DNA of 64,000 nt, taken from NCBI GenBank assembly GCA_016931225.1, contig JAFGFE010000026.1, positions 11,499 through 75,498 of the forward strand, read 5' to 3'. The DNA comes from Candidatus Zymogenaceae bacterium. GTDB lineage: Bacteria; Desulfobacterota; Zymogenia; Zymogenales; Zymogenaceae. The position numbers and the translations under genes are program-made. Under the pieces are notes generated by a model. That model was not told the DNA's origin. It saw only the letters and a program-made list of their open reading frames with translations, and made no database searches. Below are positions 11,742-24,625 of the stretch, one piece after another (the stretch's first letter is position 1; every line of letters begins with the position of its first letter).

Positions 11742-12412
11742 GGCTATCCCCCGGATAAACCTGTGTGTCGCAAACGATAGTCTCGGTTCCCGGGGGATGA
11801 AATCCGCGCATCCTAGTATTTCTCGGAATCCTTGTATAAATATACCGCAGGCTGTCAGGGGAAAGGTCGTCGGTTTTATATGCATGAAGCGGTGAAAGGC
11901 CGGTGAGATATGAGGGCAGAGGAAAAAAATGATGAACAAAACATGCCGGAAAGATCATTCCGATCGGCGCATGAAAAGAGCATTCCCCGATCACCGAGTT
12001 GAATGATATTTCATATGGGCTATAACACCTCCAAAAAGGTCTCTTGAGGCTATTATTCTACCGGGAAACGGGATGGATGTCAAAAGTTATTTATGAGACC
12101 ATAAGTAATAGTTTATGTGCTGTTTTTTTTACTGCCTTGTCGGTGAACTGAGGCGCGCTTTCGGATCACATACACACCGTCATACCATCCGGGCGAAGCG
12201 ATGGGGCGATCCCTTTGCCTTTGCCCTGTTCCCTATTTCCCCTAAAGGAGGAGTGACGGCCCGGCCCAGAGGCGTCTCACTCCGGAGGCGAGCCGTACAG
12301 TATCCGGGTGGGGGGTTCGAAAAAAAAGCAAAAGAGTCCATAATTCGATGAGTATTTTTCACCATTCTTAGCATACGCTCCTTTTTATAATTTCATTAAC
12401 GTAAAATGTTAA

Positions 12413-12441
12413 TTGACACATTGTGAGAAATTTACTATATT
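12413..12441 (+). promoter_or_regulatory. Consensus sigma70 promoter (TTGACA-N17-TATATT) driving the OLD-family nuclease gene
   Basis: Seen in sequence within the AT-rich stretch, about 35 nt before the RBS (TGAGGT) and ATG 12475. Confidence 0.5.
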
Positions 12442-12474
12442 TACCAATAGTTAATAAAAAACTGAGGTTTCAAA

Positions 12475-14313
12475 ATGAAGTTAGAAAAGTTGATAATATC
12501 AAATTTCAGAGCTTTTAACGGTACTCACGAAATTTCATTCAATGACTTAACGGTATTCATTGGAAAGAATGATATAGGAAAATCTTCAATTCTGGATGCT
12601 CTCGAAATTTTTTTCAATTCAGGTAAAATTGATTCCTCTGATATTAGTATTCACCCAAGTCCAAAAGATAATACTACCAGTAGCATCGGATGTGTTTTTT
12701 CTAAACTACCAGAAGAAATTATCCTTGATGCGAATGCAAAAACATCTTTGAAAGAGGAATATATACTAAATAAAGATGGTTTTTTAGAGATACATAAATC
12801 TTTTAATTTTTCCTCTGCAAAAAATCCAAAAGCTAAAATAATTGCAAAGGCTTACCATCCAACAGAAGAAACCTTTAAAGTATTATTGCATAAAAAGAAC
12901 GCTGATTTAAAAAAACTGGCAGAAGAAAAAGATATTCCAAGCAACGTAGACAAGAGATCAAATGTTGAGCTAAGAAAATTCCTTTGGAGTACTATCGACG
13001 ATTTAAAATTTGACAATGAAGACATCGATCTAGAAAAAGAAGATGCAAGAAAATTATGGGATCAAATTTCGAAAAAACTCCCTCTATTTGCACTATTCAA
13101 AACAGATCGGCCAAGCACAGATGAAGATTCTGAAGTACAAGACCCCATGAAACTTGCTGTAAAGCAGGTAATAAGTGAAATTGAAAATGAATTAGAAACC
13201 ATCAAAGAAAGAATTAAAGAAGAAACTCTTGATGTCGCAACAAGAACGGTTGAAAAACTTAAAGAAATAGATAGCACTCTTGCAGAAGAACTTAAACCAA
13301 CTTTTAAAGAAGAACCAAAGTGGAGTAATATTTTCAAACTTTCACTAACTGATGAAAATCAGATACCTATTAACAAGAGAGGGAGCGGTGTAAGACGACT
13401 TATCCTTATAAGCTTTCTACAAGCAGAGGCTGAAAGAAAACGATCTTCTGAGAATAAAGATAATCTTATTCTTGCTATAGAAGAACCAGAAACTTCACAA
13501 CACCCAGACAATCAGAAACTATTAATCGAGGCACTTGAACAACTATCACAAAAGGAAGGTTATCAAATAATAACAACAACACATGTACCTGCATTGGCAG
13601 GATTAGTGCCTATAAGAAGTATACGGTATATCGAAAAGGCACCAGATAATATAAGACAAATTCAAACAGGTACAGATGACACTGTATTGGAAAAAGTATC
13701 TAATAGTCTCGGTGTTCTGGCAGATAGGAGAGTTAAAGCCATAATTTGTGTTGAAGGTCCCTCAGATGTTAAATATCTAAAGTGTTTTTCAAAAATTCTT
13801 AACAAAAAAGATAACGAAACACCAAACCTAGAGAATACGAATGAAGTTGTGTTCATTCCTATGGGTGGCCGAACTTTACAAGATTGGGTAAACGATAAAT
13901 ATCTTAAACCTTTCGGTCTACCTATGTATTATATTTTTGACAGAGGAGATGAGAATAAGTATGAGGAACAAGCGAATAACATCAATAGTGACCAAGATAA
14001 ATCAATAGCATACATAACTAATGAAAGAGAAATCGAAAACTACTTACATTCATCTGCTATTGAAAAAGCGATTGGAGTTCGAATAGAAATAACTGATACC
14101 AATAAAGTAGCTGAGGAACTCGCAAAACATATTCACTGTAGTGCCCCCAACGCCAAAGAATGGAAAAATTTATCTCCGGAGGAGATAAAGAAAAAAACTA
14201 CCAGATGTAAAAAGAGATTATGCAATGAAGTATTACCATTTATCACATTAAAAATGATTGAAGAAAGAAATGCTATCGAAGAAATTAGTATGTGGCTTGA
14301 ACCATTAAAATGA
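12475..14313 (+). CDS. OLD-family ATP-dependent endonuclease (N-terminal ABC/AAA_15-21 ATPase + C-terminal Toprim); class-1-like stand-alone defence nuclease
   Basis: 612 aa. Walker A FIGKNDIGKSSILDAL; ABC signature/Walker B LILAIEEPETSQHP. The C-terminal AIICVEGPSDV..FIPMGG..IFDRGDEN..NEREIENY block is consistent with Toprim acidic residues. The gene is strongly AT-rich compared with its flanks. Confidence 0.8.
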   Translation: MKLEKLIISNFRAFNGTHEISFNDLTVFIGKNDIGKSSILDALEIFFNSGKIDSSDISIHPSPKDNTTSSIGCVFSKLPEEIILDANAKTSLKEEYILNKDGFLEIHKSFNFSSAKNPKAKIIAKAYHPTEETFKVLLHKKNADLKKLAEEKDIPSNVDKRSNVELRKFLWSTIDDLKFDNEDIDLEKEDARKLWDQISKKLPLFALFKTDRPSTDEDSEVQDPMKLAVKQVISEIENELETIKERIKEETLDVATRTVEKLKEIDSTLAEELKPTFKEEPKWSNIFKLSLTDENQIPINKRGSGVRRLILISFLQAEAERKRSSENKDNLILAIEEPETSQHPDNQKLLIEALEQLSQKEGYQIITTTHVPALAGLVPIRSIRYIEKAPDNIRQIQTGTDDTVLEKVSNSLGVLADRRVKAIICVEGPSDVKYLKCFSKILNKKDNETPNLENTNEVVFIPMGGRTLQDWVNDKYLKPFGLPMYYIFDRGDENKYEEQANNINSDQDKSIAYITNEREIENYLHSSAIEKAIGVRIEITDTNKVAEELAKHIHCSAPNAKEWKNLSPEEIKKKTTRCKKRLCNEVLPFITLKMIEERNAIEEISMWLEPLK

Positions 14314-14330
14314 TTTGAGAATAATTACTT

Positions 14331-15335: not shown

Positions 15336-16616
15336 TCATCCCGTCGTCTCCTCCGGGATCGGGGTTCCCTCCGCCGGGAGGAACTGCGCCCGCACCCACC
15401 GCCAGGCGGAGGTCACCCGGGCAACCACCCTAAGATCCGTTACCTGCCGGGAAAGCCCCAGGGCCTCGGCCACCGCCTCCTCGTGTCCCCGGTAGCGGGG
15501 CGGCAGTTCAAAGAGCGTCCGGGAGGCGTCCCCCTCCGTCGGCTCCACGACGGAAGGCCCCCACACTCCCCGGGCCGCCGCCAGCTCCCGGGCCGCCCTT
15601 GGGTACACGACACGGCGGGCCGGCAGCACCAGCCAGGGTCTCGTTCGAAACACCGGGAACTCCCCCTCACACGAAAGACGCCCGAAGCTGCGGCGGGGGA
15701 CTCCTTCCATCTCCCGGGCGGCGAAGGCGGTCACCGGTAAGAGTCGTAAGTCATCAACGGACGCCGCGCGGTTTCCCAGAAGATCGCCGACGATCACAAC
15801 GCCGTATACGGTCATGCGCATGGACCACCCGGCCAATCGATACGCCAGGTAGAGGACGATGAGCACCGCCACAAGCCCCAGGATGGGGCTGATGATCGCC
15901 GTAACCGCCAGCATCGCCAGCACCGCAAGCCGCAGCCCCTTGAGCACCACGCCGGTAAACGGCACGGGGGAGATCAGCGTCAGCGCCTCCACGACGGCGC
16001 TGGCCAGCCACACCATCAGGAATATTCCGCCCGCGAGTATCGAGGAGACGACCACCGCGATGCCGCCTACGATCCCGCCGACACCGCCCCCTTCCCCCGT
16101 CCCGTCCGCCGCCCAGGCCGTTCCCGGCCCCAGAAATCGAAAGAGGCTCGACACCGCCTCGCCCACGGGCTGGGTCAGCACCTCCACCAGCCCCGGCACA
16201 ATGGCCGCCAGGGCCAGGGCCGCCAGCACGTACTGCTGGGCCAGGGCCACGCCGTCCAGCACCTTTTTCGAGGGGGGATACGCCTCGCCGATGGTGTCGT
16301 TGAGCCCCACCAGCACCAGGAGTATCGCCAGCAGGATCAGAAAAACCGGCGAATAGAACCACCGGACGCTCTCCCCGTCCCGGACCGCGTTGATGTAGTG
16401 ATAGCTCCCCACCACCATCAGCCCGAGGAGCGGATTGACGGCGATGCCCACGGTCTTGGACAGCTCCCGGGATATCGCCGTTCCCCGGTCGTACATATCG
16501 GTGATGTCCCGGGCCGCCTCGCTCACCGCCTCCAGTTCCTCATCCTGGGAGGGGGCGGCCGCGGCCACGCCCAGAGACAGCGCCGCAACAACCAGAAGCG
16601 CCACAACTCGTTTCAT
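15336..16616 (-). CDS. Hypothetical secreted/polytopic membrane protein (signal peptide, Gly-rich TM helices, Arg/Pro-rich C-terminal tail)
   Basis: 426 aa, no recognised family, on the same strand as and directly upstream of the protease gene. The ORF-track end of 16616 and my reading of the sequence differ by 1 nt. Confidence 0.55.
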   Translation of the reverse strand: MKRVVALLVVAALSLGVAAAAPSQDEELEAVSEAARDITDMYDRGTAISRELSKTVGIAVNPLLGLMVVGSYHYINAVRDGESVRWFYSPVFLILLAILLVLVGLNDTIGEAYPPSKKVLDGVALAQQYVLAALALAAIVPGLVEVLTQPVGEAVSSLFRFLGPGTAWAADGTGEGGGVGGIVGGIAVVVSSILAGGIFLMVWLASAVVEALTLISPVPFTGVVLKGLRLAVLAMLAVTAIISPILGLVAVLIVLYLAYRLAGWSMRMTVYGVVIVGDLLGNRAASVDDLRLLPVTAFAAREMEGVPRRSFGRLSCEGEFPVFRTRPWLVLPARRVVYPRAARELAAARGVWGPSVVEPTEGDASRTLFELPPRYRGHEEAVAEALGLSRQVTDLRVVARVTSAWRWVRAQFLPAEGTPIPEETTG

Positions 16617-16759
16617 ACGTCACCCCGCCATACAGGCCGACTCACAGGTCACATGCGCCTATCGCGTGTTCCTCTTATAATACCACGACCGTTTCTGCGA
16701 GGAAACGGTTTTTCGCCCCTCCCCGGGAGAGGGGCGACTTTCTTTCGCCCCTTTTTCCC

Positions 16760-16809
16760 TTGACAGGTCCCCGCAAGATTCCTATAATATGATGGCCAAC
16801 ATACGTTGG
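16760..16809 (+). promoter_or_regulatory. Perfect consensus sigma70 promoter (TTGACA-N17-TATAAT) abutted by a CCAAC-ATAC-GTTGG palindrome; candidate lexA promoter/operator
   Basis: Seen in sequence: -35 at 16760-16765, -10 at 16783-16788, inverted repeat at 16796-16809. This is about 200 nt upstream of the lexA ATG. Confidence 0.5.
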
Positions 16810-17007
16810 GGCTGTAATCATGATACCGGGCGGCAGGGGGGGCCTATCGACGGCGACCGGCAGCCTCCGGTTGTGTGAGAGTAACACGGTCGTACCCCGC
16901 CCCTTCCACAGCGGCGGTGCGGGGTCTCCCTCGGTATTGCGGGCAACGGCGCGCATGCGCCCCGGTGCCCGGAAGAAGTTTTTCGCCGCGGGGTGAAAGG
17001 AGGACAG

Positions 17008-17682
17008 ATGGTCGAGCGACTCACCGACAGGCAGCAGGAGGCCCTGGATTTCATCCGGGCGTACACCGAAGACCGGGGCTACCCCCCCACGATGCGGGAG
17101 CTGGCCGACGGCCTGGGCCTTTCCGGCCCCAAGGGCGCCAAGGAATACATGGATATCCTGGAGCGCAAGGGATACATCCGGCGGGAGCCGGAGAGCTCCC
17201 GGGCGCTGACGATTATCGACGGCGGCCGGGGGGAGGGGGACGCCGGGCCGGGTCTCTTCTCCCGCCTGGAGGGGATCCCGGTGGTCGGGCGGGTGGCGGC
17301 GGGGATGCCCATCACCGCCGTGGAGAATATCGAGGGCTATTTCACCCTGGCCGGCAGGCGCACCGACGACCTGTTCATGCTCCGGGTCTCGGGAGACAGC
17401 ATGATCGAGGCCCACATCGCGCCGGGGGACATGGTGCTGGTCAATCCCCTGTCCCGGGTGGAAAACGGGGACATCGTGGTGGCCCTGCTCGACGGCGAGG
17501 CCACCGTCAAGCGATACAAGACCAGCCACCGCCCGGGGCCCGAGGGGTCCGGGGTGGTGCTCTACCCGGAAAACCGAACCATGCAGCCCATCTTCGTGGA
17601 CGGCGGGATGGATTTTTCCATCGTCGGCAAAGTGGTGGGCGTGGTGCGGGACATGGAGGGGGATCTGGTGATGCCCGAATAG
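17008..17682 (+). CDS. lexA: LexA repressor (wHTH + S24 peptidase)
   Basis: MVERLTDRQQEALDFIRAY N-terminus; catalytic Ser in VSGDSM and catalytic Lys in ATVKRYK. AGGAGGA RBS. Confidence 0.93.
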   Translation: MVERLTDRQQEALDFIRAYTEDRGYPPTMRELADGLGLSGPKGAKEYMDILERKGYIRREPESSRALTIIDGGRGEGDAGPGLFSRLEGIPVVGRVAAGMPITAVENIEGYFTLAGRRTDDLFMLRVSGDSMIEAHIAPGDMVLVNPLSRVENGDIVVALLDGEATVKRYKTSHRPGPEGSGVVLYPENRTMQPIFVDGGMDFSIVGKVVGVVRDMEGDLVMPE

Positions 17683-17987
17683 GTCCGGGGGGGGGAGGGG
17701 GGAGCGAAAGAGATAGGGAGCGTGAGAGATAATCACCGGCAACCGGAAAGAGGCCGGGATAAGAGAATTTTTATAATAGAAGTAATGTATACCCCGGTCG
17801 AAGGAGGTCCTCCCCGGTGACGGGCCGACGCCCGGTCATGCCGCTCGACCCCTCGCCCGGCGGCGGCGCGGTGTGTCCCCATCGGCGGCGGAGTGAAAAC
17901 AGGCTCCGCCTCCCGGCCTCGCCCCGCAGTAAGTGAATATCCAATGACACACATCAGCCACGCATACATGCCGCGGAGAAATACACC

Positions 17988-18239
17988 ATGCCGTTCGTCA
18001 TCGGAGAGTCCGTTACGGTGGGCGCCGTCTTTGGCGACGGGCGGGTGAATCCCAAGTGGTTCATCTGGCGGGGGGAAAAATATCCGGTGGACGGCATCAC
18101 CTACACCTGGCGGGACCAAGACGGACGGGACACCGTCCACCACTTCGCCGTGCTGGCCTGCGGCAACCTCTACGAGCTGTGCTACCGCGAGCGGCGGATG
18201 AACTGGTTTCTGGCGTCGGTGGAGGTGGAGGGGGGGTAG
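17988..18239 (+). CDS. Hypothetical small protein (83 aa) downstream of lexA
   Basis: Protein-like composition with Trp/Tyr-rich content; GGAG 9 nt upstream. The competing antisense ORF looks spurious. Confidence 0.4.
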   Translation: MPFVIGESVTVGAVFGDGRVNPKWFIWRGEKYPVDGITYTWRDQDGRDTVHHFAVLACGNLYELCYRERRMNWFLASVEVEGG

Positions 18240-18242
18240 ATA

Positions 18243-19358
18243 TTATTCCCCGTCAAACTCTTCCGGGTACTGCTCGTGGAGATACGTCAACAGCGCCTCG
18301 GCGGCGATACGCACGCCAGTCGGATTCCAGTGGGTGTCCCCCGGATAGTAAATCAGATCGTTGATATCGTTCTTTTCACGATATGCCATATAGTCCGGGA
18401 GGACATTCACGCACGGGACCCCTCGACGCGCAAGCTCCTTTTCGAGGCGCGGGATAAAATCATGGTACGGTCCCGCCCCGGCAAGGTCGCCGTATATCGT
18501 GTATTTATCAGGTATGGGCAAAAAGATCATTTCGATGTTGTATTCCCGTTCCAGCACCTCCCGGATTTCCATGATAACGTCCGCCATGACGGCGACGTCT
18601 TCCTGCGAGAATTCCAGATTGTACGCGTCTACCTCGGCGTATGAAAACAGCATATTCGGTTTCAGGGAATATTTCGGCGTCAGATCGGGCAGCTCGTGAA
18701 ACAGAAAGAACCTGAGCGTGGACAAACAGGAAACAAGCCACCGGGTTCCCTGGAAGTTCAAAAACGTATACTCGATCTTGTCCTTATGGAGATAGATCGC
18801 TTCGAGGTGCGTGTCAATCTCCTGGAGAAAGGAGGACGCCTCCTCCCGCGTCTCTGTTTCCGAAACGACGTCTTCTTCCGGGGCGGGCGCCATTTCCGGG
18901 ATCTCCCGTGCGATCAGGCGTTCCACCTTCTCCCACACGAGAAAGGTTTTTCCCTTGGGAGCATATTGGAGCTCGGACAGCATGACAAGGGGGTTGTTTC
19001 TCCCCTGTGATCTGAGCGCCGCGTATACGATGATCGATGTGTTTTTGCCGGTCTCCCGTGAGAGTTCATACCCGAGGAGCTCATCATTGAACGCGACAAA
19101 GCTGTCTCCAAACAGAACGACGTCGGCATCATTCACCTCCACGAACGTCTCGAGGTCCGACCAGGGAAACTCGTCCGGGATTTTTGATTTGAACACCGCC
19201 ACCTTGTTCAGGTCATACAGGTCCCCATAGTGCGCGCCGTGACCGGTGACCGATTTTCCCATTTCCGGGATATGGCTTGCCACAAGGAGAAAAAGGAAAT
19301 ACAGCGCGGCGATGTAAAAAAGACCCTGGACGATTATCGATTTTTTCCCGTTCAGCAT
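18243..19358 (-). CDS. AlgJ/AlgX-like SGNH-fold polysaccharide O-acetyltransferase partner (periplasmic, N-terminal anchor)
   Basis: 371 aa; a DTHWNP motif near the C-terminus and an N-terminal TM segment; adjacent to and co-oriented with the MBOAT gene. Confidence 0.65.
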   Translation of the reverse strand: MLNGKKSIIVQGLFYIAALYFLFLLVASHIPEMGKSVTGHGAHYGDLYDLNKVAVFKSKIPDEFPWSDLETFVEVNDADVVLFGDSFVAFNDELLGYELSRETGKNTSIIVYAALRSQGRNNPLVMLSELQYAPKGKTFLVWEKVERLIAREIPEMAPAPEEDVVSETETREEASSFLQEIDTHLEAIYLHKDKIEYTFLNFQGTRWLVSCLSTLRFFLFHELPDLTPKYSLKPNMLFSYAEVDAYNLEFSQEDVAVMADVIMEIREVLEREYNIEMIFLPIPDKYTIYGDLAGAGPYHDFIPRLEKELARRGVPCVNVLPDYMAYREKNDINDLIYYPGDTHWNPTGVRIAAEALLTYLHEQYPEEFDGE

Positions 19359-19367
19359 GGCTCTTCA

Positions 19368-20813
19368 TCAAAAATTGAAATAAATAAAGTCCGTCCCGTG
19401 GAATACACCGAGGAGGAAAAAGGAAAGAACGAACACGGCCCAGATGCATATCTTCACGGAAAGGGGCGTCTGTTGTTTTACTCTTTCGATATACAGGGGG
19501 GCGCTTTCGGACAGCACCTCCCAGACAATCAGGCATCCGACAAGGACGAGAGAAAGGACGAGGTTGAACACGCCCAGGCCGACATCAAGAGAACCGGAAA
19601 AAAACGGCCCCCGGCCGACGCCCGCGATCAGGGCGACGGCGTCGTACATGGACGCCGAGCGAAAGAATATCCAGGCGAACGTTACCAGGTGAAACGTCAA
19701 AAGAATCTTGCCCGTTTCATTCAGCCACGGTCTCTTTGCCGGCGGAGCTGTGGGGAACACCCGGGATTTCTTCGCCGTGAGGTGATGGACGACATAATAG
19801 AGACAATACAAAAGCCCCCAAAACACAAAGGTCCAGTTCGCGCCGTGCCACAGGCCGCAGATGAAAAAGGTGACAAAAATATTGAAAAAGAGCCGCGCCC
19901 TGGTCACCCGGTTCCCGCCGAGGGGAATATATATATAGTCCCTCAGCCACCGCGACAGGGAGATGTGCCACCGTCTCCAGAAATCGGGAATGGACCTTGC
20001 CAGATACGGCCGCTGGAAGTTCTCCATAACGTTGATCCCGAGGATCTGGGCGCTCCCGATGGCCATATCGGTGTATCCGGAAAAATCGCAGTATATCTGA
20101 AAGGAATAAAAATATATCGCGAGCACCAGGGCCAGGCCCGTATATTCATCGTAGTTGCCGTACACCTCGTTGACATACATGGCCAGGCGGTCGGCGATGA
20201 CGATCTTTTTGAACAGACCGAAAAAGAACCGCTTCAATCCCTCTTGCACCATCTCCGCATCGAAACCGGGGGTCTGTTTCAACTGCGGTATGAGAGATCC
20301 CGCCCGCTCGATGGGCCCGGACAGCACGATCGGGAAAAAGGAGATGAAAAGGGCGAAGACCCCCGGATTTTTTTCGGGGGAAACCTGCGTTCGATAGACA
20401 TCGACGAGATAGGCGACGGCGAGAAAGGTGAAAAACGATATCCCCGTCGGCACGGCAACATGGGAAAAGGATTTCGAGAACGTGACCCCGAACAGGTCGA
20501 GGAGGCCGGCGGCGCTTTCCGCCAGAAAACCGGCATACTTGAAATAGACGAGGGGCAAAAGCACACAGACGACGGACAGGACGAACACGGCCTTTCGGAC
20601 CGCCCCGTGCAGGGGCCTTCCCATGACGAGCCCGGCGGCGTACGACGCCGCGGTCACGTAGAGCAGCACGAGCACGGGCACAATGCCCCAGTACAGATAG
20701 AAGTAGTAGCCGAACAGCAGCAGAAACAGCCATCGAATCCGCTGCGGCAGGAGGAAATAGATGCCCGCCGCAACGAAGAACAGCATGATGTACAGAAGAG
20801 AGGAAAGTATCAT
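19368..20813 (-). CDS. MBOAT-family membrane-bound O-acyltransferase (AlgI/DltB-like)
   Basis: 481 aa polytopic protein with FWRRWHISLSRWLRDYIYIPLGG (the conserved MBOAT His) and LWHGANW. Confidence 0.88.
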   Translation of the reverse strand: MILSSLLYIMLFFVAAGIYFLLPQRIRWLFLLLFGYYFYLYWGIVPVLVLLYVTAASYAAGLVMGRPLHGAVRKAVFVLSVVCVLLPLVYFKYAGFLAESAAGLLDLFGVTFSKSFSHVAVPTGISFFTFLAVAYLVDVYRTQVSPEKNPGVFALFISFFPIVLSGPIERAGSLIPQLKQTPGFDAEMVQEGLKRFFFGLFKKIVIADRLAMYVNEVYGNYDEYTGLALVLAIYFYSFQIYCDFSGYTDMAIGSAQILGINVMENFQRPYLARSIPDFWRRWHISLSRWLRDYIYIPLGGNRVTRARLFFNIFVTFFICGLWHGANWTFVFWGLLYCLYYVVHHLTAKKSRVFPTAPPAKRPWLNETGKILLTFHLVTFAWIFFRSASMYDAVALIAGVGRGPFFSGSLDVGLGVFNLVLSLVLVGCLIVWEVLSESAPLYIERVKQQTPLSVKICIWAVFVLSFFLLGVFHGTDFIYFNF

Positions 20814-21180
20814 CGCGTATTATCCAAAACGGGTGTTTTTCGGCGCATGTGCGGATTCGGCGAAACGGGCCTTCGGTTTTTCGAAAAAACCATCGGCGCA
20901 CACAGCCCCGCGTGCGGATTGCATCCGGGCGCGCATCCCACACGATGCCGTTTCTCCCGGAAGCACGGAAAACGGGTGGATTTCGTCCGTTCCCCGCGAT
21001 TTTTTATTGTTTTACAATGGTTTTGAAATGTACAACCATCACCGCCGTCTTGTCAATCTTTTTTCTCGTTTAGCGGCACCCTCGTTTTTTCCCGGGCGCT
21101 GCACGCCGCGCCACGCGGGGGGCGGAGAAGCCTGTTTTGAGCGGCGGGGGAGGGGAAGGGTAAAATCCTTCCATTACTCA

Positions 21181-21192
21181 TAGCATATGCTA
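21181..21192. promoter_or_regulatory. Perfect 12-bp palindrome TAGCATATGCTA next to a TAAAAT -10-like hexamer, ~40 nt upstream of the AT-rich orphan gene; candidate operator
   Basis: Seen in sequence. Confidence 0.35.
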
Positions 21193-21229
21193 AAATAGAT
21201 AAATATATTTTTGAAAAATACGTGAGTAG

Positions 21230-22453
21230 TTGATTATGTTAGAAGAATTTTTTCTTACCACAGGTATTAGGTTTATTTATCGGCTATGGGAAAAGCTTGC
21301 AAAAAAATTTAAAATTAAACGCGGCAAACTAATTCACGTTATATTCGAAGAAGAATATGCCGAAGAATTTTATTCTTTTATTCCCTTTGTGGATATTATC
21401 AAATACAGGGACGATCTTTTACAAATTCGTGATGCGTGGATTATGTTCAAAGGAGATAAAAATCCTTTTGGAAAGAAGGAGACAACAACATACAAATACT
21501 CTTTGAATAGAGACTCAATAACTCCAAAAGAAATAAAACACAGCGAAGAAGTTTCTTTCGGACATGTATGGCTCCCGCAAAACCTTTCTGAAATAGTAGA
21601 ATCAAAAGATGTTCATCTTTTTTTCAAGGATGGTAAAGACAAAGAACACTCCTACTGCTTTGAAAAAGAAAACTTATCTTCTTTGAGACGTTGGTTTTCA
21701 ACTCGACAGATTAAAAACAGTGACTACATCGTTCATATTATATGCGGAACTGAAATAACCCGCGACCACAGGGGCAGGATTATCGATAATAAACCCAGCC
21801 TCTTTTTCACTAACCCAAGAAAACGAGGAGATGTTCCTGTTAAGGAATTTGCATCTAATCCTCTTCCTGTTTCAATGATTCAACCTTCGGATTCCACCAC
21901 TAACATTGATGAGGTTCTTCCTCTTGAAATAATAAAGTATCGCTACTGCCCGGAAGACCCGAATTTTTTTCTTTTTTTTGTTAAGAATTATCACCCACAT
22001 CAAGCTGCTGTCACCGATCGAGGAGTTTTACAATACGGTGATGAACATTTTGAACTTCGTGGTAACTATTACTCTACCGTAATAAAGTATAAACATAAAA
22101 TTAGTTCCACCAAAGATTTCGAAGATATCCATCATGCAATGTCCGTTCTTGGATTAAAAGAACTCCCTATAGAGGCCGCTATTAAATTTGCCGGGAAAAA
22201 AGAAATTCTGGAAGGCGAAAAACCAGCTCCTTATTACGCGAATAATGGCATTATTCCTTTCGGTCAAACTTTTTGGGTTGTAATGAAAATAAGAGATAAA
22301 AAAGGTAAGGAACTATTGGGGAAAAGCGTAAAAGTCGTTTTGAAAAACGGCGGTATGCCTGTGAGTCGCCCCTTCGAATTCTTAGTCGGGACCGAAAAAG
22401 AACTCATTGAAAAGCACACTACTAAGATTTCTTTTTCTCCTTTTGTCCTCTAA
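21230..22453 (+). CDS. Hypothetical protein (407 aa), strongly AT-rich orphan gene inserted immediately upstream of dinB
   Basis: Long clean ORF (Lys/Asn/Ile/Phe-rich) in an AT-rich island; TTG 21230 or ATG 21236 start; no recognisable domain. Confidence 0.6.
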   Translation: MIMLEEFFLTTGIRFIYRLWEKLAKKFKIKRGKLIHVIFEEEYAEEFYSFIPFVDIIKYRDDLLQIRDAWIMFKGDKNPFGKKETTTYKYSLNRDSITPKEIKHSEEVSFGHVWLPQNLSEIVESKDVHLFFKDGKDKEHSYCFEKENLSSLRRWFSTRQIKNSDYIVHIICGTEITRDHRGRIIDNKPSLFFTNPRKRGDVPVKEFASNPLPVSMIQPSDSTTNIDEVLPLEIIKYRYCPEDPNFFLFFVKNYHPHQAAVTDRGVLQYGDEHFELRGNYYSTVIKYKHKISSTKDFEDIHHAMSVLGLKELPIEAAIKFAGKKEILEGEKPAPYYANNGIIPFGQTFWVVMKIRDKKGKELLGKSVKVVLKNGGMPVSRPFEFLVGTEKELIEKHTTKISFSPFVL

Positions 22454-22481
22454 CATATTTTTTCTTATTTTTAAAAAACCC

Positions 22482-23780
22482 ATGACCACCACACCCGACA
22501 GCCCGTTACCCAAAAGCTCCTTCCCGGGGCCGAGGCACTACCGCCCCGGCGGGGAGATTGAGCGGGTCGTGCTGCATTTGGATATGGACGCCTTCTTCGC
22601 CCAGGTGGAGCAGGTCACAAACCCCCATCTTTTGGGAAAGCCCATCGCCGTGGTGGGGAGCAAAAAGCGCACGGTGGTGGTCACCTCCTCGTACGAGGCG
22701 AGAAAATACGGCGTCAAGACCGCCATGACCATCGGCGAGGTGAGGCGTCTCTGCCCGGAGATCATCTTCGTCCCCGGCAACAACCGGAAATACATCGACA
22801 CGTCCGTGCGCATCATCAACGTCCTCAAGGAATTCAGCCCCGACGTGGAGGTCTACTCCATCGACGAGGCCTTCGTGGACATCACGGGCTCCTTGCGCCT
22901 CTTCGGCGGGTCGGAGGCCATCGCCCACAGCATCAAGGAGCGCATCCTTGATGAGGTGGGGCTGACCGCCTCCATCGGCGTTGCCCCCAACAAGCTGGTG
23001 GCGAAGATCGCCAGTGACCTGAAAAAGCCGGACGGCCTGGTGATCCTCACGGAAGCCGACGTCCCCGGCCTGATGGAGACCCTCCCCATCGAGGAGGTCT
23101 GCGGCATCGGCCGGCGCACCGCCGCCAAGCTCCACTCCCTGGGCGTCTCCACCTGCGGCGAGCTGGGACGCTACCCGGTCTCGGTGCTCACAAAAAAATT
23201 CGGCGTCATCGGCGAATACCTCCACTGCATGGGCAAGGGCCTCGATTCCAGCCCCGTCATCCCCGCAGGGCAAGAGGACGACGTCAAAAGCATCGGCCAC
23301 TCCATGACGTTTCCCTTTGATGTGGAGGACAGAGACGGCCTTTCCCATTATCTGCTGCTCCTCTCGGCGAAGGTGGGGCGCCGCGCCCGGCGGGCGGGAT
23401 GCGCCGGGCGCACCGTGGCCCTCTATGTCCGCTTCGCCGACTTCACCGGAGTGGGCAGGCGGACCACCTGCCACCACCACATCCAGCTCGACGCCGACAT
23501 CTATGAGACGGCTCTTGAGATCCTCTCCTCCATCGAGCTGACCCAGCCGGTGCGGCTTCTGGGGGTGAGCCTCTCCAACCTGACCCATACGGGACGGCAG
23601 CTCCCCCTCTTCTCCGGGGAGCGGCGGGAGTTCTTATTGGCCCGCGCCATGGACTCCATCCGGGATCTCTTCGGCGACGACGCCGTGGCCTACGCCTCCA
23701 TCACGGACCGCATCAGCGAGGCGGGGGTCATCTCCCCGGCGTGGCGTCCCGCGGGACCCCGGCGGGTGGACCCGCGATGA
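22482..23780 (+). CDS. dinB: DNA polymerase IV (Y-family translesion polymerase DinB)
   Basis: VVLHLDMDAFFAQVEQ..SIDEAFVDITGS..GIGRRTAAKL motifs. The ORF frame opens at 22407 inside the AT-rich island; the start is most likely ATG 22482 or the downstream GTG. Confidence 0.9.
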   Translation: MTTTPDSPLPKSSFPGPRHYRPGGEIERVVLHLDMDAFFAQVEQVTNPHLLGKPIAVVGSKKRTVVVTSSYEARKYGVKTAMTIGEVRRLCPEIIFVPGNNRKYIDTSVRIINVLKEFSPDVEVYSIDEAFVDITGSLRLFGGSEAIAHSIKERILDEVGLTASIGVAPNKLVAKIASDLKKPDGLVILTEADVPGLMETLPIEEVCGIGRRTAAKLHSLGVSTCGELGRYPVSVLTKKFGVIGEYLHCMGKGLDSSPVIPAGQEDDVKSIGHSMTFPFDVEDRDGLSHYLLLLSAKVGRRARRAGCAGRTVALYVRFADFTGVGRRTTCHHHIQLDADIYETALEILSSIELTQPVRLLGVSLSNLTHTGRQLPLFSGERREFLLARAMDSIRDLFGDDAVAYASITDRISEAGVISPAWRPAGPRRVDPR

Positions 23781-23917
23781 ACCATGAAAAGACGCCTTGC
23801 GTCGCAGGTTGTCCGCGAAGGTTTTTACCCGAACCCCGTTTTTTGTTGACTCCCGGGAGTATCCTTGATATCTTATTCAGGTTAAAGAATTCTAATAAAC
23901 GGAGATGCTTCACGCAG

Positions 23918-24625
23918 ATGCTATCGAATACACGAGCGGCGCTTTGTGTTCTCGCGGCGATGTTCCTCGCCGCGTCTGCGTTTTCCCAAACGACGGACCC
24001 CGTCGCCCGAAGCAACGAGATCGTCGCGGAACGAATGACGGAGCTGGAAAATCAGCGGGGACCGGCGGAGACCTACACCTACGGCGCCATCACCGACGAC
24101 GAGAACAATCGGGAGCTGTTCCGGGTCGCATCAAAAATATCCGACCTGACGGGGCTCGATTTCGTCGCCCTCGCCTCCATCCAGCAGCTTGGGGGGGAGG
24201 TGGAGCTCTACTCCGTGGCGACGACCCTGCCGGGAGATCTCCCGGGAAAAGACGACATGCTCCGGATACTGGCCAGGAGCCGGCTCAGGCATTTTGAGCC
24301 GTATTATTATGAAGCGTATTTCAAGGACTACCCCCAGGACGACACCGCCGCATTCTCCCAGGCCGTGGCCGACGAGGTGTGGCTCGCCTTCCGGGAGGAA
24401 TACGGCGACCTGAGCGACACGGATCCCGAGGGGCTGGCGGAGAAATATCCCGCGGCGAAAAAGGCTGCGGACCTGACGGGGCTGGATATCATACCCCTTT
24501 CGGGCGTACTCGCCACCGGGGGATATGACGGACTCTCAAAGTTGCTGATGGTCATGCCCGAGGAGCTCCCCGGAAAGCATGAGGCCATTGGAGAAGTCGC
24601 CGACGAACGCAGGAAAAGCCGATAG
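23918..24625 (+). CDS. Hypothetical secreted protein with an internal tandem duplication (…DLTGLD…GG…LPGDLPGK repeated)
   Basis: Signal peptide MLSNTRAALCVLAAMFLAASAFSQT; two homologous ~70-aa halves; no family recognised. Confidence 0.5.
   Translation: MLSNTRAALCVLAAMFLAASAFSQTTDPVARSNEIVAERMTELENQRGPAETYTYGAITDDENNRELFRVASKISDLTGLDFVALASIQQLGGEVELYSVATTLPGDLPGKDDMLRILARSRLRHFEPYYYEAYFKDYPQDDTAAFSQAVADEVWLAFREEYGDLSDTDPEGLAEKYPAAKKAADLTGLDIIPLSGVLATGGYDGLSKLLMVMPEELPGKHEAIGEVADERRKSR

What the first reader, a model, noticed from the sequence alone, without database searches (positions are those of the whole stretch)
20950..22500. Second AT-rich island: a 407-aa orphan protein wedged immediately upstream of dinB, preceded by perfect palindromes
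The 21230-22453 ORF is strongly AT-rich in an otherwise GC-rich neighbourhood, has no recognisable domain, and ends ~30 nt before the dinB start. The dinB reading frame even opens inside the island (22407). Two candidate operators lie upstream: a 12-bp perfect palindrome TAGCATATGCTA (21181-21192) overlapping a TAAAAT -10-like box, and ATGGTT-N11-AACCAT (21017-21039). The island may have captured, or be co-transcribed with, the SOS-inducible dinB promoter region. That would make its product damage- or prophage-induction-responsive, as reported for several defence and anti-defence genes. lexA lies only ~4.5 kb away.
Basis: partly seen in the sequence, partly recalled or inferred. Interest (0 to 1): 0.75.

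Follow-up and report, generated by a model that had tools for sequence, protein, structure and literature searches.

The report
Orphan gene in SOS-operon defence hotspot
The AT-rich orphan gene in front of dinB is real, and it sits in a strain-variable slot inside the conserved lexA–small gene–dinB DNA-damage operon; in sister strains that slot holds anti-phage-type genes instead, which makes the orphan a candidate new defence gene, but the two palindromes are not damage-response operators.

Summary
A 405-aa ORF (21236-22453, GC about 0.37 against 0.55-0.65) ends 28 nt before dinB and matches no known family.

It is a real gene. A 69%-identical copy sits at the same place in a related strain (dN/dS 0.29). 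Only two other distant, domain-level relatives turned up in the searches of the 5.8-billion-cluster and 1.84-billion-representative protein collections.

Comparative genomics reframes it. lexA, an 83-aa DUF6504-like gene and dinB form a tight array in many phyla. In the Zymogenaceae, the space between the small gene's stop and dinB (window 18240-22466) is a hypervariable slot:
- empty in one genome;
- TPR+HEPN_LA2681 in two lineages;
- a Bpu10I-like nuclease in one locus;
- DUF4238, an experimentally validated anti-phage family, in one locus;
- the orphan in the window and in the L001-type strains;
- in the window, the orphan plus a 2.9-kb antisense AlgX/MBOAT insert.

The clade's LexA box (CCAAC-N4-GTTGG) occurs once per locus, upstream of lexA, and never near the orphan. 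The 12-bp palindrome is not conserved and is within chance. The ATGGTT-N11-AACCAT repeat belongs to the MBOAT insert.

The orphan's biochemical function is unknown: structure models were poor. The window copy has lost the N-terminal membrane helix that its relatives carry.

Best reading: single-gene defence-type cargo, ancestrally co-transcribed with the SOS operon, and now probably supplying dinB's transcription.

The parts
16760..16788 (+). Consensus sigma-70 promoter (TTGACA-17-TATAAT, 12 of 12) upstream of lexA
   Evidence: sequence
16796..16809 (.). Inferred LexA box CCAACATACGTTGG, 8 nt after the -10. It is the only match with up to 1 mismatch in the 64-kb window
   Evidence: The arms are conserved and the spacer varies in L167, L173, L169, L170, L006 and L005, always upstream of lexA
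17008..17682 (+). lexA
   Evidence: Pfam LexA_DNA_bind 1.7e-21 and Peptidase_S24 2.3e-29; translation
17988..18239 (+). 83-aa DUF6504-like small gene, the left border of the variable slot
   Evidence: tblastn. DUF6504 match is weak (6.9e-7 for the L005 orthologue). It lies between lexA and dinB in 21 loci from several phyla
18240..22466 (.). Variable slot between the small-gene stop and about 15 nt before the dinB ATG
   Evidence: Alignment with congeneric L173 breaks exactly at 18239 and resumes at 22467. Slot content differs in L001, L173, L180, L005, L006 and L007
18243..19358 (-). AlgX/SGNH-like gene, first gene of the 2.9-kb antisense insert that L001 lacks
   Evidence: Pfam ALGX 1.1e-11; L001 comparison; same junction in L165, L174, L177 and L178
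19368..20813 (-). MBOAT O-acyltransferase, second gene of the antisense insert
   Evidence: Pfam MBOAT 1.4e-29
21017..21039 (.). ATGGTT-N11-AACCAT inverted repeat. It lies in the MBOAT upstream region and overlaps the minus-strand promoter-like site TTGACA-18-TACATT (21056 to 21027). It is not part of the orphan islet
   Evidence: region absent from L001; chance level
21114..21160 (+). Degenerate copy (about 72% identity) of the 3' end of the small gene, marking the old junction between small gene and islet
   Evidence: local alignment score 31; 1 of 200 shuffles reached it. This is borderline
21161..22466 (+). AT-rich single-gene islet: promoter, orphan ORF and a short trailer
   Evidence: GC profile; homologous islet in L001 at about 703-2066; no second conserved ORF
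21181..21192 (.). 12-bp perfect palindrome TAGCATATGCTA. It is not conserved in L001 and is within chance
21188..21196 (+). Extended -10 element TGCTAAAAT, conserved in window and L001. It is the candidate promoter of the orphan and, in this genome, of dinB
   Evidence: in L001: TTTTCA-17-TAAAAT preceded by TG
21236..22453 (+). Orphan ORF, 405 aa (MBN1882640.1 / JW885_10740)
   Evidence: dN/dS is 0.29 against the L001 copy. The N-terminal TM helix seen in relatives is lost through a 45-nt in-frame deletion
22482..23780 (+). dinB (DNA polymerase IV), the right border of the slot
   Evidence: Pfam IMS, IMS_C and IMS_HHH; 91% identical to the L001 orthologue

Best explanation
The 405-aa ORF is the single gene of a small AT-rich islet. 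The islet occupies a strain-variable cargo slot inside the conserved lexA / DUF6504-like small gene / dinB SOS array of Candidatus Zymogenaceae.

Slot contents are probably swapped between strains by recombination through the conserved flanks. No integrase or shared junction repeat was seen. The identifiable alternative cargos are defence or toxin-type genes. The orphan is therefore most likely a novel single-protein anti-phage or abortive-infection-type effector. Its family normally has one N-terminal membrane helix followed by a cytoplasmic, beta-rich body of two domains.

In the ancestral layout, seen in L001, the gene lies co-directionally between the small gene and dinB. There it can be transcribed both from the LexA-controlled lexA promoter and from its own extended -10 promoter.

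In this window a later 2.9-kb antisense AlgX/MBOAT insertion separates it from lexA and the small gene. Here the orphan and dinB are probably expressed from the islet's own promoter, and dinB depends on read-through from the orphan.

Shown: the gene is real and under purifying selection; the slot is hypervariable; the alternative cargos are defence-type; the LexA box is only upstream of lexA. Inferred: defence function, co-transcription, SOS coupling.
For: Real gene:
- A 69%-identical copy lies at the same position in L001.
- dN/dS is 0.29.
- Domain-level relatives P0003 and P0004 exist.

Slot variability:
- L007 is empty, with a 59-nt spacer.
- L005 carries TPR+HEPN_LA2681 (Pfam 1.7e-74).
- L006 carries a Bpu10I-like nuclease (9e-24).
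- L173 carries DUF4238 (3e-26).
- L180, L181 and L176 carry TPR+HEPN_LA2681.
- L174, L177, L178 and L165 carry AlgX/MBOAT.
- Flanks are 83-94% identical at the nucleotide level, and alignments break exactly at the small-gene stop and about 15 nt before dinB.

Defence-type company:
- A single DUF4238 protein gave strong resistance to phage T7 (bioRxiv 10.1101/2021.01.21.427644).
- LA2681-type HEPN is listed among conflict-system RNase toxins (PMC3710099).

Cargo diverges faster than its flanks:
- Orphan 69% identical against DinB 91%; dS 0.70 against 0.27 and 0.18.
- HEPN cargo 50% against DinB 68%.

Operon geometry:
- lexA-small-dinB is tight in 21 loci.
- The HEPN cargo starts 5-14 nt after the small-gene stop.
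- No terminator lies between small gene, orphan and dinB in L001, nor between orphan and dinB in the window.

Promoter and operator:
- A LexA box follows a 12-of-12 promoter upstream of lexA.
- TGCTAAAAT is conserved in both islets.

Membrane helix: present in P0002 and P0003, absent from the window protein.
Against: - No defence family matched the orphan (PADLOC; relatives), and no catalytic-looking motif is conserved.
- The defence assignment rests on guilt by location, drawn from about ten independent loci.
- One slot occupant (AlgX/MBOAT), and the genes after the small gene in L166, are not classical defence genes.
- The window copy has lost the membrane helix and may be inactive.
- No LexA box lies near the orphan or dinB.
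- The lexA-small spacer is 305-588 nt in this genus, so LexA control of the downstream genes is unproven even in L001.
Confidence: 0.5

Rival explanations
1. The orphan is a functionless or decaying passenger: a remnant of a mobile element that persists in a transcriptionally quiet, insertion-tolerant site, with no role in defence or in the SOS response.
For: The window allele has lost the N-terminal membrane helix through a 45-nt deletion. The family has only four members in the two large protein searches. No motif or fold could be assigned.
Against: The 405/420-codon frame is intact in two lineages that differ at 24% of nucleotides. dN/dS is 0.29, close to dinB's 0.21. The promoter element is conserved. 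The deletion is in frame.
Confidence: 0.15
2. The orphan is a moron or superinfection-exclusion-type gene of a phage or phage satellite that integrates at the 3' ends of genes. On this view the slot is an attachment site, not a recombination hotspot.
For: The N-domain relative P0003 sits in an 880-bp AT-rich islet flanked by a 108-nt direct repeat of the lysA 3' end. That islet lies next to a phage-capsid-like gene cluster. In the window, a degenerate copy of the small-gene 3' end lies left of the islet. Membrane-anchored exclusion proteins are common in prophages (own knowledge).
Against: No integrase, phage gene or shared junction repeat lies at the slot in the window, L001, L173, L180, L005 or L006. 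No relative was found in IMG/VR viral contigs, and PHROGs gave nothing significant. The duplication in the window is borderline (1 of 200 shuffles).
Confidence: 0.15
3. The orphan is a dedicated accessory or regulator of DinB or of the SOS response, for example a factor that modulates translesion synthesis, and is linked to dinB for functional reasons.
For: It is tightly abutted to dinB (28-29 nt) in both genomes that carry it. The E. coli dinB operon also carries extra genes, yafN, yafO and yafP (PMC3105422).
Against: Congeneric strains replace it with unrelated proteins (DUF4238, HEPN-TPR) or have nothing there. Its distant relatives P0003 and P0004 are not next to dinB. Its composition is foreign (GC3 0.32 against 0.88-0.92).
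Confidence: 0.05

Closest known systems
Defence hotspots between conserved flanking genes (for example the P2/P4 prophage hotspots of Rousset et al., bioRxiv 10.1101/2021.01.21.427644)
   Same: Fixed conserved borders. Short, mostly single-gene cargos of atypical composition that differ between close strains. The cargos include DUF4238, HEPN and nuclease genes. Unknown genes at such a slot are candidate defence genes.
   Different: The borders here are chromosomal SOS genes (the DUF6504-like gene and dinB), not prophage genes. No phage backbone is present. The cargo lies inside a LexA-headed gene array.
E. coli dinB-yafN-yafO-yafP operon (SOS-regulated toxin-antitoxin cargo in a dinB operon of variable content; PMC3105422, PMC2814082)
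   Same: Toxin-type accessory genes share a LexA-controlled transcription unit with dinB, and operon content varies between strains.
   Different: In E. coli the extra genes follow dinB, and YafNO is a two-gene toxin-antitoxin pair. Here a single gene precedes dinB, no antitoxin is present, and the LexA box lies upstream of lexA and not of dinB.
lexA-dinB operons of Deltaproteobacteria such as Geobacter sulfurreducens (own knowledge: Jara et al. 2003)
   Same: lexA and dinB lie in one co-directional unit headed by an autoregulated LexA operator.
   Different: Here an 83-aa DUF6504-like gene and a variable cargo slot are interposed. The LexA box (CCAAC-N4-GTTGG) resembles the Gram-positive GAAC-N4-GTTC type and not the reported Geobacter motif.
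[not shown]
   Different: The model is too poor (pLDDT 43.5) for a fold assignment. Positive residues after the helix predict a cytoplasmic body, unlike secreted pilins.

Membership tests
LexA (SOS) regulon member | A LexA operator in the gene's own promoter region | tested here: not met
   The clade motif CCAAC-N4-GTTGG has no match with up to 2 mismatches between 16810 and 27031. It is absent from the L001, L180 and L173 slots.
LexA (SOS) regulon member | Position in a co-directional operon headed by a LexA-controlled promoter | tested here: inconclusive
   Geometry fits in L001, where lexA, small gene, orphan and dinB share a strand with gaps of 72 and 29 nt and no terminator. In the window a 2.9-kb antisense insert and a 305-nt lexA-small spacer intervene.
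LexA (SOS) regulon member | Induction by DNA damage | not testable with these tools
   This needs RNA-seq or RT-qPCR with and without mitomycin C. The organism is uncultured.
Defence-hotspot cargo | Conserved flanking genes with different content between related strains | tested here: met
   At least six states were seen between the small gene and dinB.
Defence-hotspot cargo | Known defence genes among the alternative occupants | tested here: met
   DUF4238 (Pfam 3e-26; weak PADLOC DUF4238-Pers match at 7e-4; validated against T7), HEPN_LA2681+TPR (1.7e-74) and a Bpu10I-like nuclease (9e-24).
Defence-hotspot cargo | Protection against phage when expressed | not testable with these tools
   This needs an experiment.
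Known defence protein families (PADLOC 2.0) | Significant profile match | tested here: not met
   There were no hits for the orphan or for P0002-P0004.
Type II toxin-antitoxin module | Two adjacent small genes (toxin and antitoxin) | tested here: not met
   The islet has a single 405-aa ORF, and no second ORF is conserved between window and L001.
Integron gene cassette | attC-like imperfect inverted repeat at the cassette end and a nearby integron integrase | tested here: not met
   The junctions of five cargos share no repeat. No integrase was seen among the Pfam-scanned neighbours or the precomputed Pfam labels of related loci, but neighbours were not scanned exhaustively.
Prophage or satellite moron | Embedded in or adjacent to phage structural or integration genes | tested here: not met
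   This is not met in the window or L001, and there were no viral-contig relatives. The distant relative P0003 does lie beside a capsid-like cluster.

The most novel reading that the evidence does not exclude
The lexA / DUF6504-like gene / [slot] / dinB array of Zymogenaceae is a dedicated SOS-gated immune socket. Interchangeable toxic effectors are kept silent by LexA and fire when phage infection or prophage induction activates RecA. On this reading the orphan family is a previously unknown class of membrane-tethered, beta-sandwich abortive-infection effector.
Probability: 0.2. Interest if true: 0.8.

Novelty: new variant of a known kind. Interest (0 to 1): 0.55.

Why it matters
If the reading is right, it gives two things.

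First, it describes a chromosomal defence hotspot embedded in a LexA-headed operon. That would wire interchangeable immune effectors directly to the DNA-damage signal in an uncultured sulfate-reducer-related lineage.

Second, it offers a concrete candidate for a new single-gene defence protein, from a family with only four known members. The candidate was found by the same 'unknown gene in a defence slot' logic that has already yielded validated systems.

The locus also shows that cargo insertion can rewire the transcription of a translesion polymerase. In this genome dinB appears to depend on the foreign gene's promoter.

Tried and rejected
Searches on the orphan that found nothing useful:
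- Pfam, PADLOC, PHROGs and NCBIfam gave nothing significant.
- A profile search of PDB sequences gave nothing (best E 0.099).
- Re-searching the 5.8-billion-cluster collection with a four-sequence profile found no new members.
- IMG/VR viral contigs held no relative.

Structure:
- AlphaFold2 gave pLDDT 34.9 from the single sequence and 43.5 from the four-sequence alignment.
- Foldseek against BFVD found nothing at E <= 0.001.
- The afdb50 library was unavailable.

Other checks:
- Rfam found no RNA family in 16000-24000.
It missed the close clade, though it did show the lexA-small-dinB array in other phyla.
- I rejected the 16675-17742 minus-strand ORF as a gene; lexA lies on the plus strand there.
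- I considered a G-run ('GGAGG..GAGGGGGGG') as a shared insertion target of the P0003 and P0001/P0002 islets. I did not pursue it: there are too few cases, and in the small gene it encodes the conserved C-terminus.
- I considered the ATGGTT-N11-AACCAT repeat as a Geobacter-type LexA box (GGTT-N11-ACC). The spacing is off by one and the element is absent from L001.
Full report
**1. Observation**

The window contains an ORF at 21230-22453. The likely start is ATG 21236, giving 405 aa. GC falls to 0.32-0.39 across 21200-22400, against 0.54-0.65 in the flanks. The stop lies 28 nt before the ATG of a DinB/IMS polymerase gene at 22482-23780 (Pfam IMS 1.4e-54).

The upstream extension of the dinB frame to 22407 is a mechanical artefact. 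The N-terminus MTTTP... is conserved in the orthologue.

Both palindromes exist at the stated coordinates. Neither is unusual. The window has 22 perfect 12-bp palindromes, and 6-N(0-20)-6 perfect inverted repeats occur at 9.6 per kb.

The protein has no significant match in Pfam, PADLOC, PHROGs or NCBIfam.

**2. It is a real but very rare gene**

A word-indexed search of 5.8 billion protein clusters found two proteins:
- the gene itself (P0001 = MBN1882640.1, JW885_10740, a Candidatus Zymogenaceae MAG);
- one 69%-identical protein, P0002.

An exhaustive HMMER pass over 1.84 billion cluster representatives added two domain-level relatives:
- P0003, 209 aa, which matches residues 16-198;
- P0004, 353 aa, which matches residues 227-393.

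A profile of the four sequences found nothing further.

Against the P0002 gene, dN/dS is 0.29, so the frame is under purifying selection. Synonymous divergence is 0.70, against 0.27 for dinB and 0.18 for the small upstream gene. GC3 is 0.32, against 0.88-0.92. The islet has therefore either evolved much faster than its flanks or been exchanged as a unit.

P0002 and P0003 have a strong N-terminal transmembrane helix (Kyte-Doolittle 2.6 and 2.1) followed by a lysine/arginine-rich stretch. This predicts a cytoplasmic body. The window protein lacks the helix because of a 45-nt in-frame deletion (KD 0.38).

**3. The context is the informative part**

P0002 also lies in an AT-rich islet directly upstream of a dinB that is 91% identical to the window's.

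In L001 the islet starts immediately after the stop codon of an 83-aa gene. The window has the orthologue of that gene (93% identical) at 17988-18239, just downstream of lexA at 17008-17682.

The 83-aa protein matches DUF6504 only weakly. Even so, the array lexA, small gene, dinB recurs in 21 loci from several phyla, usually with gaps under 100 nt.

Within the Zymogenaceae-like clade, the space between the small-gene stop and dinB is hypervariable:

| Locus | Slot content |
|---|---|
| L007 | empty, 59-nt spacer |
| L005 | 494-aa TPR+HEPN_LA2681 protein (1.7e-74) |
| L006 | 286-aa Bpu10I-like nuclease (9e-24) |
| L173 (flanks 83-89% identical to the window) | 278-aa DUF4238 protein, GC 0.44 |
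| L180, L181, L176 (flanks 93-94% identical) | 540-aa TPR+HEPN_LA2681, GC 0.38, starting 5 nt after the small-gene stop |
| L001, L167, L169-L171 | the orphan |
| L165, L174, L177, L178 | antisense AlgX/MBOAT after the small gene; these contigs end before the dinB side |
| window | antisense AlgX/MBOAT pair, then the orphan |

Alignments with L173 break exactly at 18239 and resume at 22467. This defines the slot in the window as 18240-22466.

Several of these strains come from the same sample series (Ga0180431-Ga0180434), so the variation is at strain level.

A single DUF4238 protein was shown to give strong resistance to phage T7 (bioRxiv 10.1101/2021.01.21.427644). LA2681-type HEPN domains fused to TPR are catalogued among conflict-system RNase toxins (PMC3710099). 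Every identifiable single-gene occupant of the slot is thus of the defence or toxin type. By the hotspot logic of that paper, the orphan is a candidate new defence gene.

**4. Regulation**

Upstream of lexA the window has a 12-of-12 sigma-70 promoter at 16760-16788. Eight nucleotides later comes CCAACATACGTTGG at 16796-16809.

The same arms, with different 4-nt spacers (ATTT, ATAT, GCCC, GCCT), lie upstream of lexA in L167, L173, L169, L170, L006 and L005. In each of those loci and in the window, this is the only match with up to 1 mismatch. L007 has no match at that threshold; its lexA upstream region carries only the degenerate GTAACATACGTTCC. I take this motif as the clade's LexA box, by phylogenetic footprint.

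The motif has no match with up to 2 mismatches between 16810 and 27031, and it is absent from the slots of L001, L173 and L180.

- TAGCATATGCTA reads CAATATGTGCTA in L001. What is conserved is the overlapping extended -10 element TGCTAAAAT at 21188-21196.
- ATGGTT-N11-AACCAT lies in the 2.9-kb AlgX/MBOAT insert that L001 lacks. It overlaps a minus-strand promoter-like site that faces MBOAT.

In L001 the order lexA, small gene, orphan, dinB is co-directional, with 72- and 29-nt gaps and no terminator. SOS-driven read-through is plausible there. For the HEPN cargos, with gaps of 5-14 nt, it is almost unavoidable.

In the window the antisense insert sits between the small gene and the orphan. There the orphan and dinB probably depend on the islet's own promoter. 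dinB has no promoter or LexA box of its own in the 28-nt gap.

All of this is inference from geometry. The 305-588-nt spacer between lexA and the small gene in this genus adds uncertainty.

**5. How the cargo moves**

No integrase and no shared junction repeat was seen. Flank-mediated homologous replacement is the simplest model.

Two observations hint at integration into the 3' ends of genes:
- A degenerate copy of the small-gene 3' end lies at 21114-21160. This is borderline: 1 of 200 shuffles reached the score.
- A clear 108-nt duplication of the lysA 3' end flanks the P0003 islet in L004, beside a phage-capsid-like cluster.

**6. Verdict**

The locus is a new variant of two known kinds of thing: defence hotspots between conserved genes, and dinB operons that carry toxin-type cargo. 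The orphan protein itself belongs to no described family.

My confidence by claim:
- about 0.85 that this is hotspot cargo;
- about 0.45 that it is a defence or toxin effector;
- about 0.5 that dinB is co-transcribed with it in this genome.

Noticed in passing
window 12135-14330 (ORF 12475-14313, +): The first AT-rich island encodes a 612-aa AAA_15 ATPase with a weak OLD-like Toprim tail. Its best PADLOC match is PARIS AriA (5.6e-66), followed by Old and GajA. In congeneric L173 the same position holds a 710-bp segment with a TfoX_N gene instead, so this is a second variable slot.
   Followed up: partly
window 18240-21113: A 2.9-kb antisense insert carries an AlgX/SGNH-like gene and an MBOAT O-acyltransferase, placed 3 nt after the small-gene stop. 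Related strains L165, L174, L177 and L178 share it; L001, L173 and L180 lack it. It may be a surface-polysaccharide O-acylation module, which could alter phage receptors.
   Followed up: partly
window 16760-16809 and 16810-17007: A perfect TTGACA-17-TATAAT promoter plus the CCAAC-N4-GTTGG box lies about 220 nt upstream of the lexA ATG. This leaves a long GC-rich leader of unknown role.
   Followed up: no
L088, L090, L092, L097; L080, L033; L091: The lexA / DUF6504-like gene / dinB array occurs in other phyla with different palindromes upstream of lexA: GTATACATTTGTATAC in four loci, CTGCAC-N4-GTGCAG in the two Ignavibacteria loci, and GTAAACGTATGTTTAC in one locus. The small gene looks like an unrecognised, widely conserved member of the SOS array.
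   Followed up: partly
L004 9745-9852, 10731-10838, 13466-13511: The lysA 3' end is repeated two to three times. The first two copies bracket the 880-bp AT-rich islet that encodes P0003, and a phage-capsid-like cluster follows. This looks like tandem integration at one attachment site.
   Followed up: partly
window 17683-17987 compared with L167 9413-10000 and L173 9640-10000: The lexA-small intergenic spacer varies from 305 to 588 nt among close relatives, and is only 15-140 nt in other lineages. It may hold another insertion site or an unannotated element. Rfam found nothing there.
   Followed up: no
L006 2930-3229 and L005 3000-3300: AT-rich patches also lie just upstream of the lexA promoter in sister genomes. 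The one in L006 encodes a protein that looks HicB-antitoxin-like by eye.
   Followed up: no
L166 452-6193: In one relative (small protein 65% identical) the small gene is followed by GNAT acetyltransferase, methyltransferase, TldD/PmbA and ABC-transporter genes, with no dinB within 5.7 kb. This is either a large insertion or a broken array.
   Followed up: no
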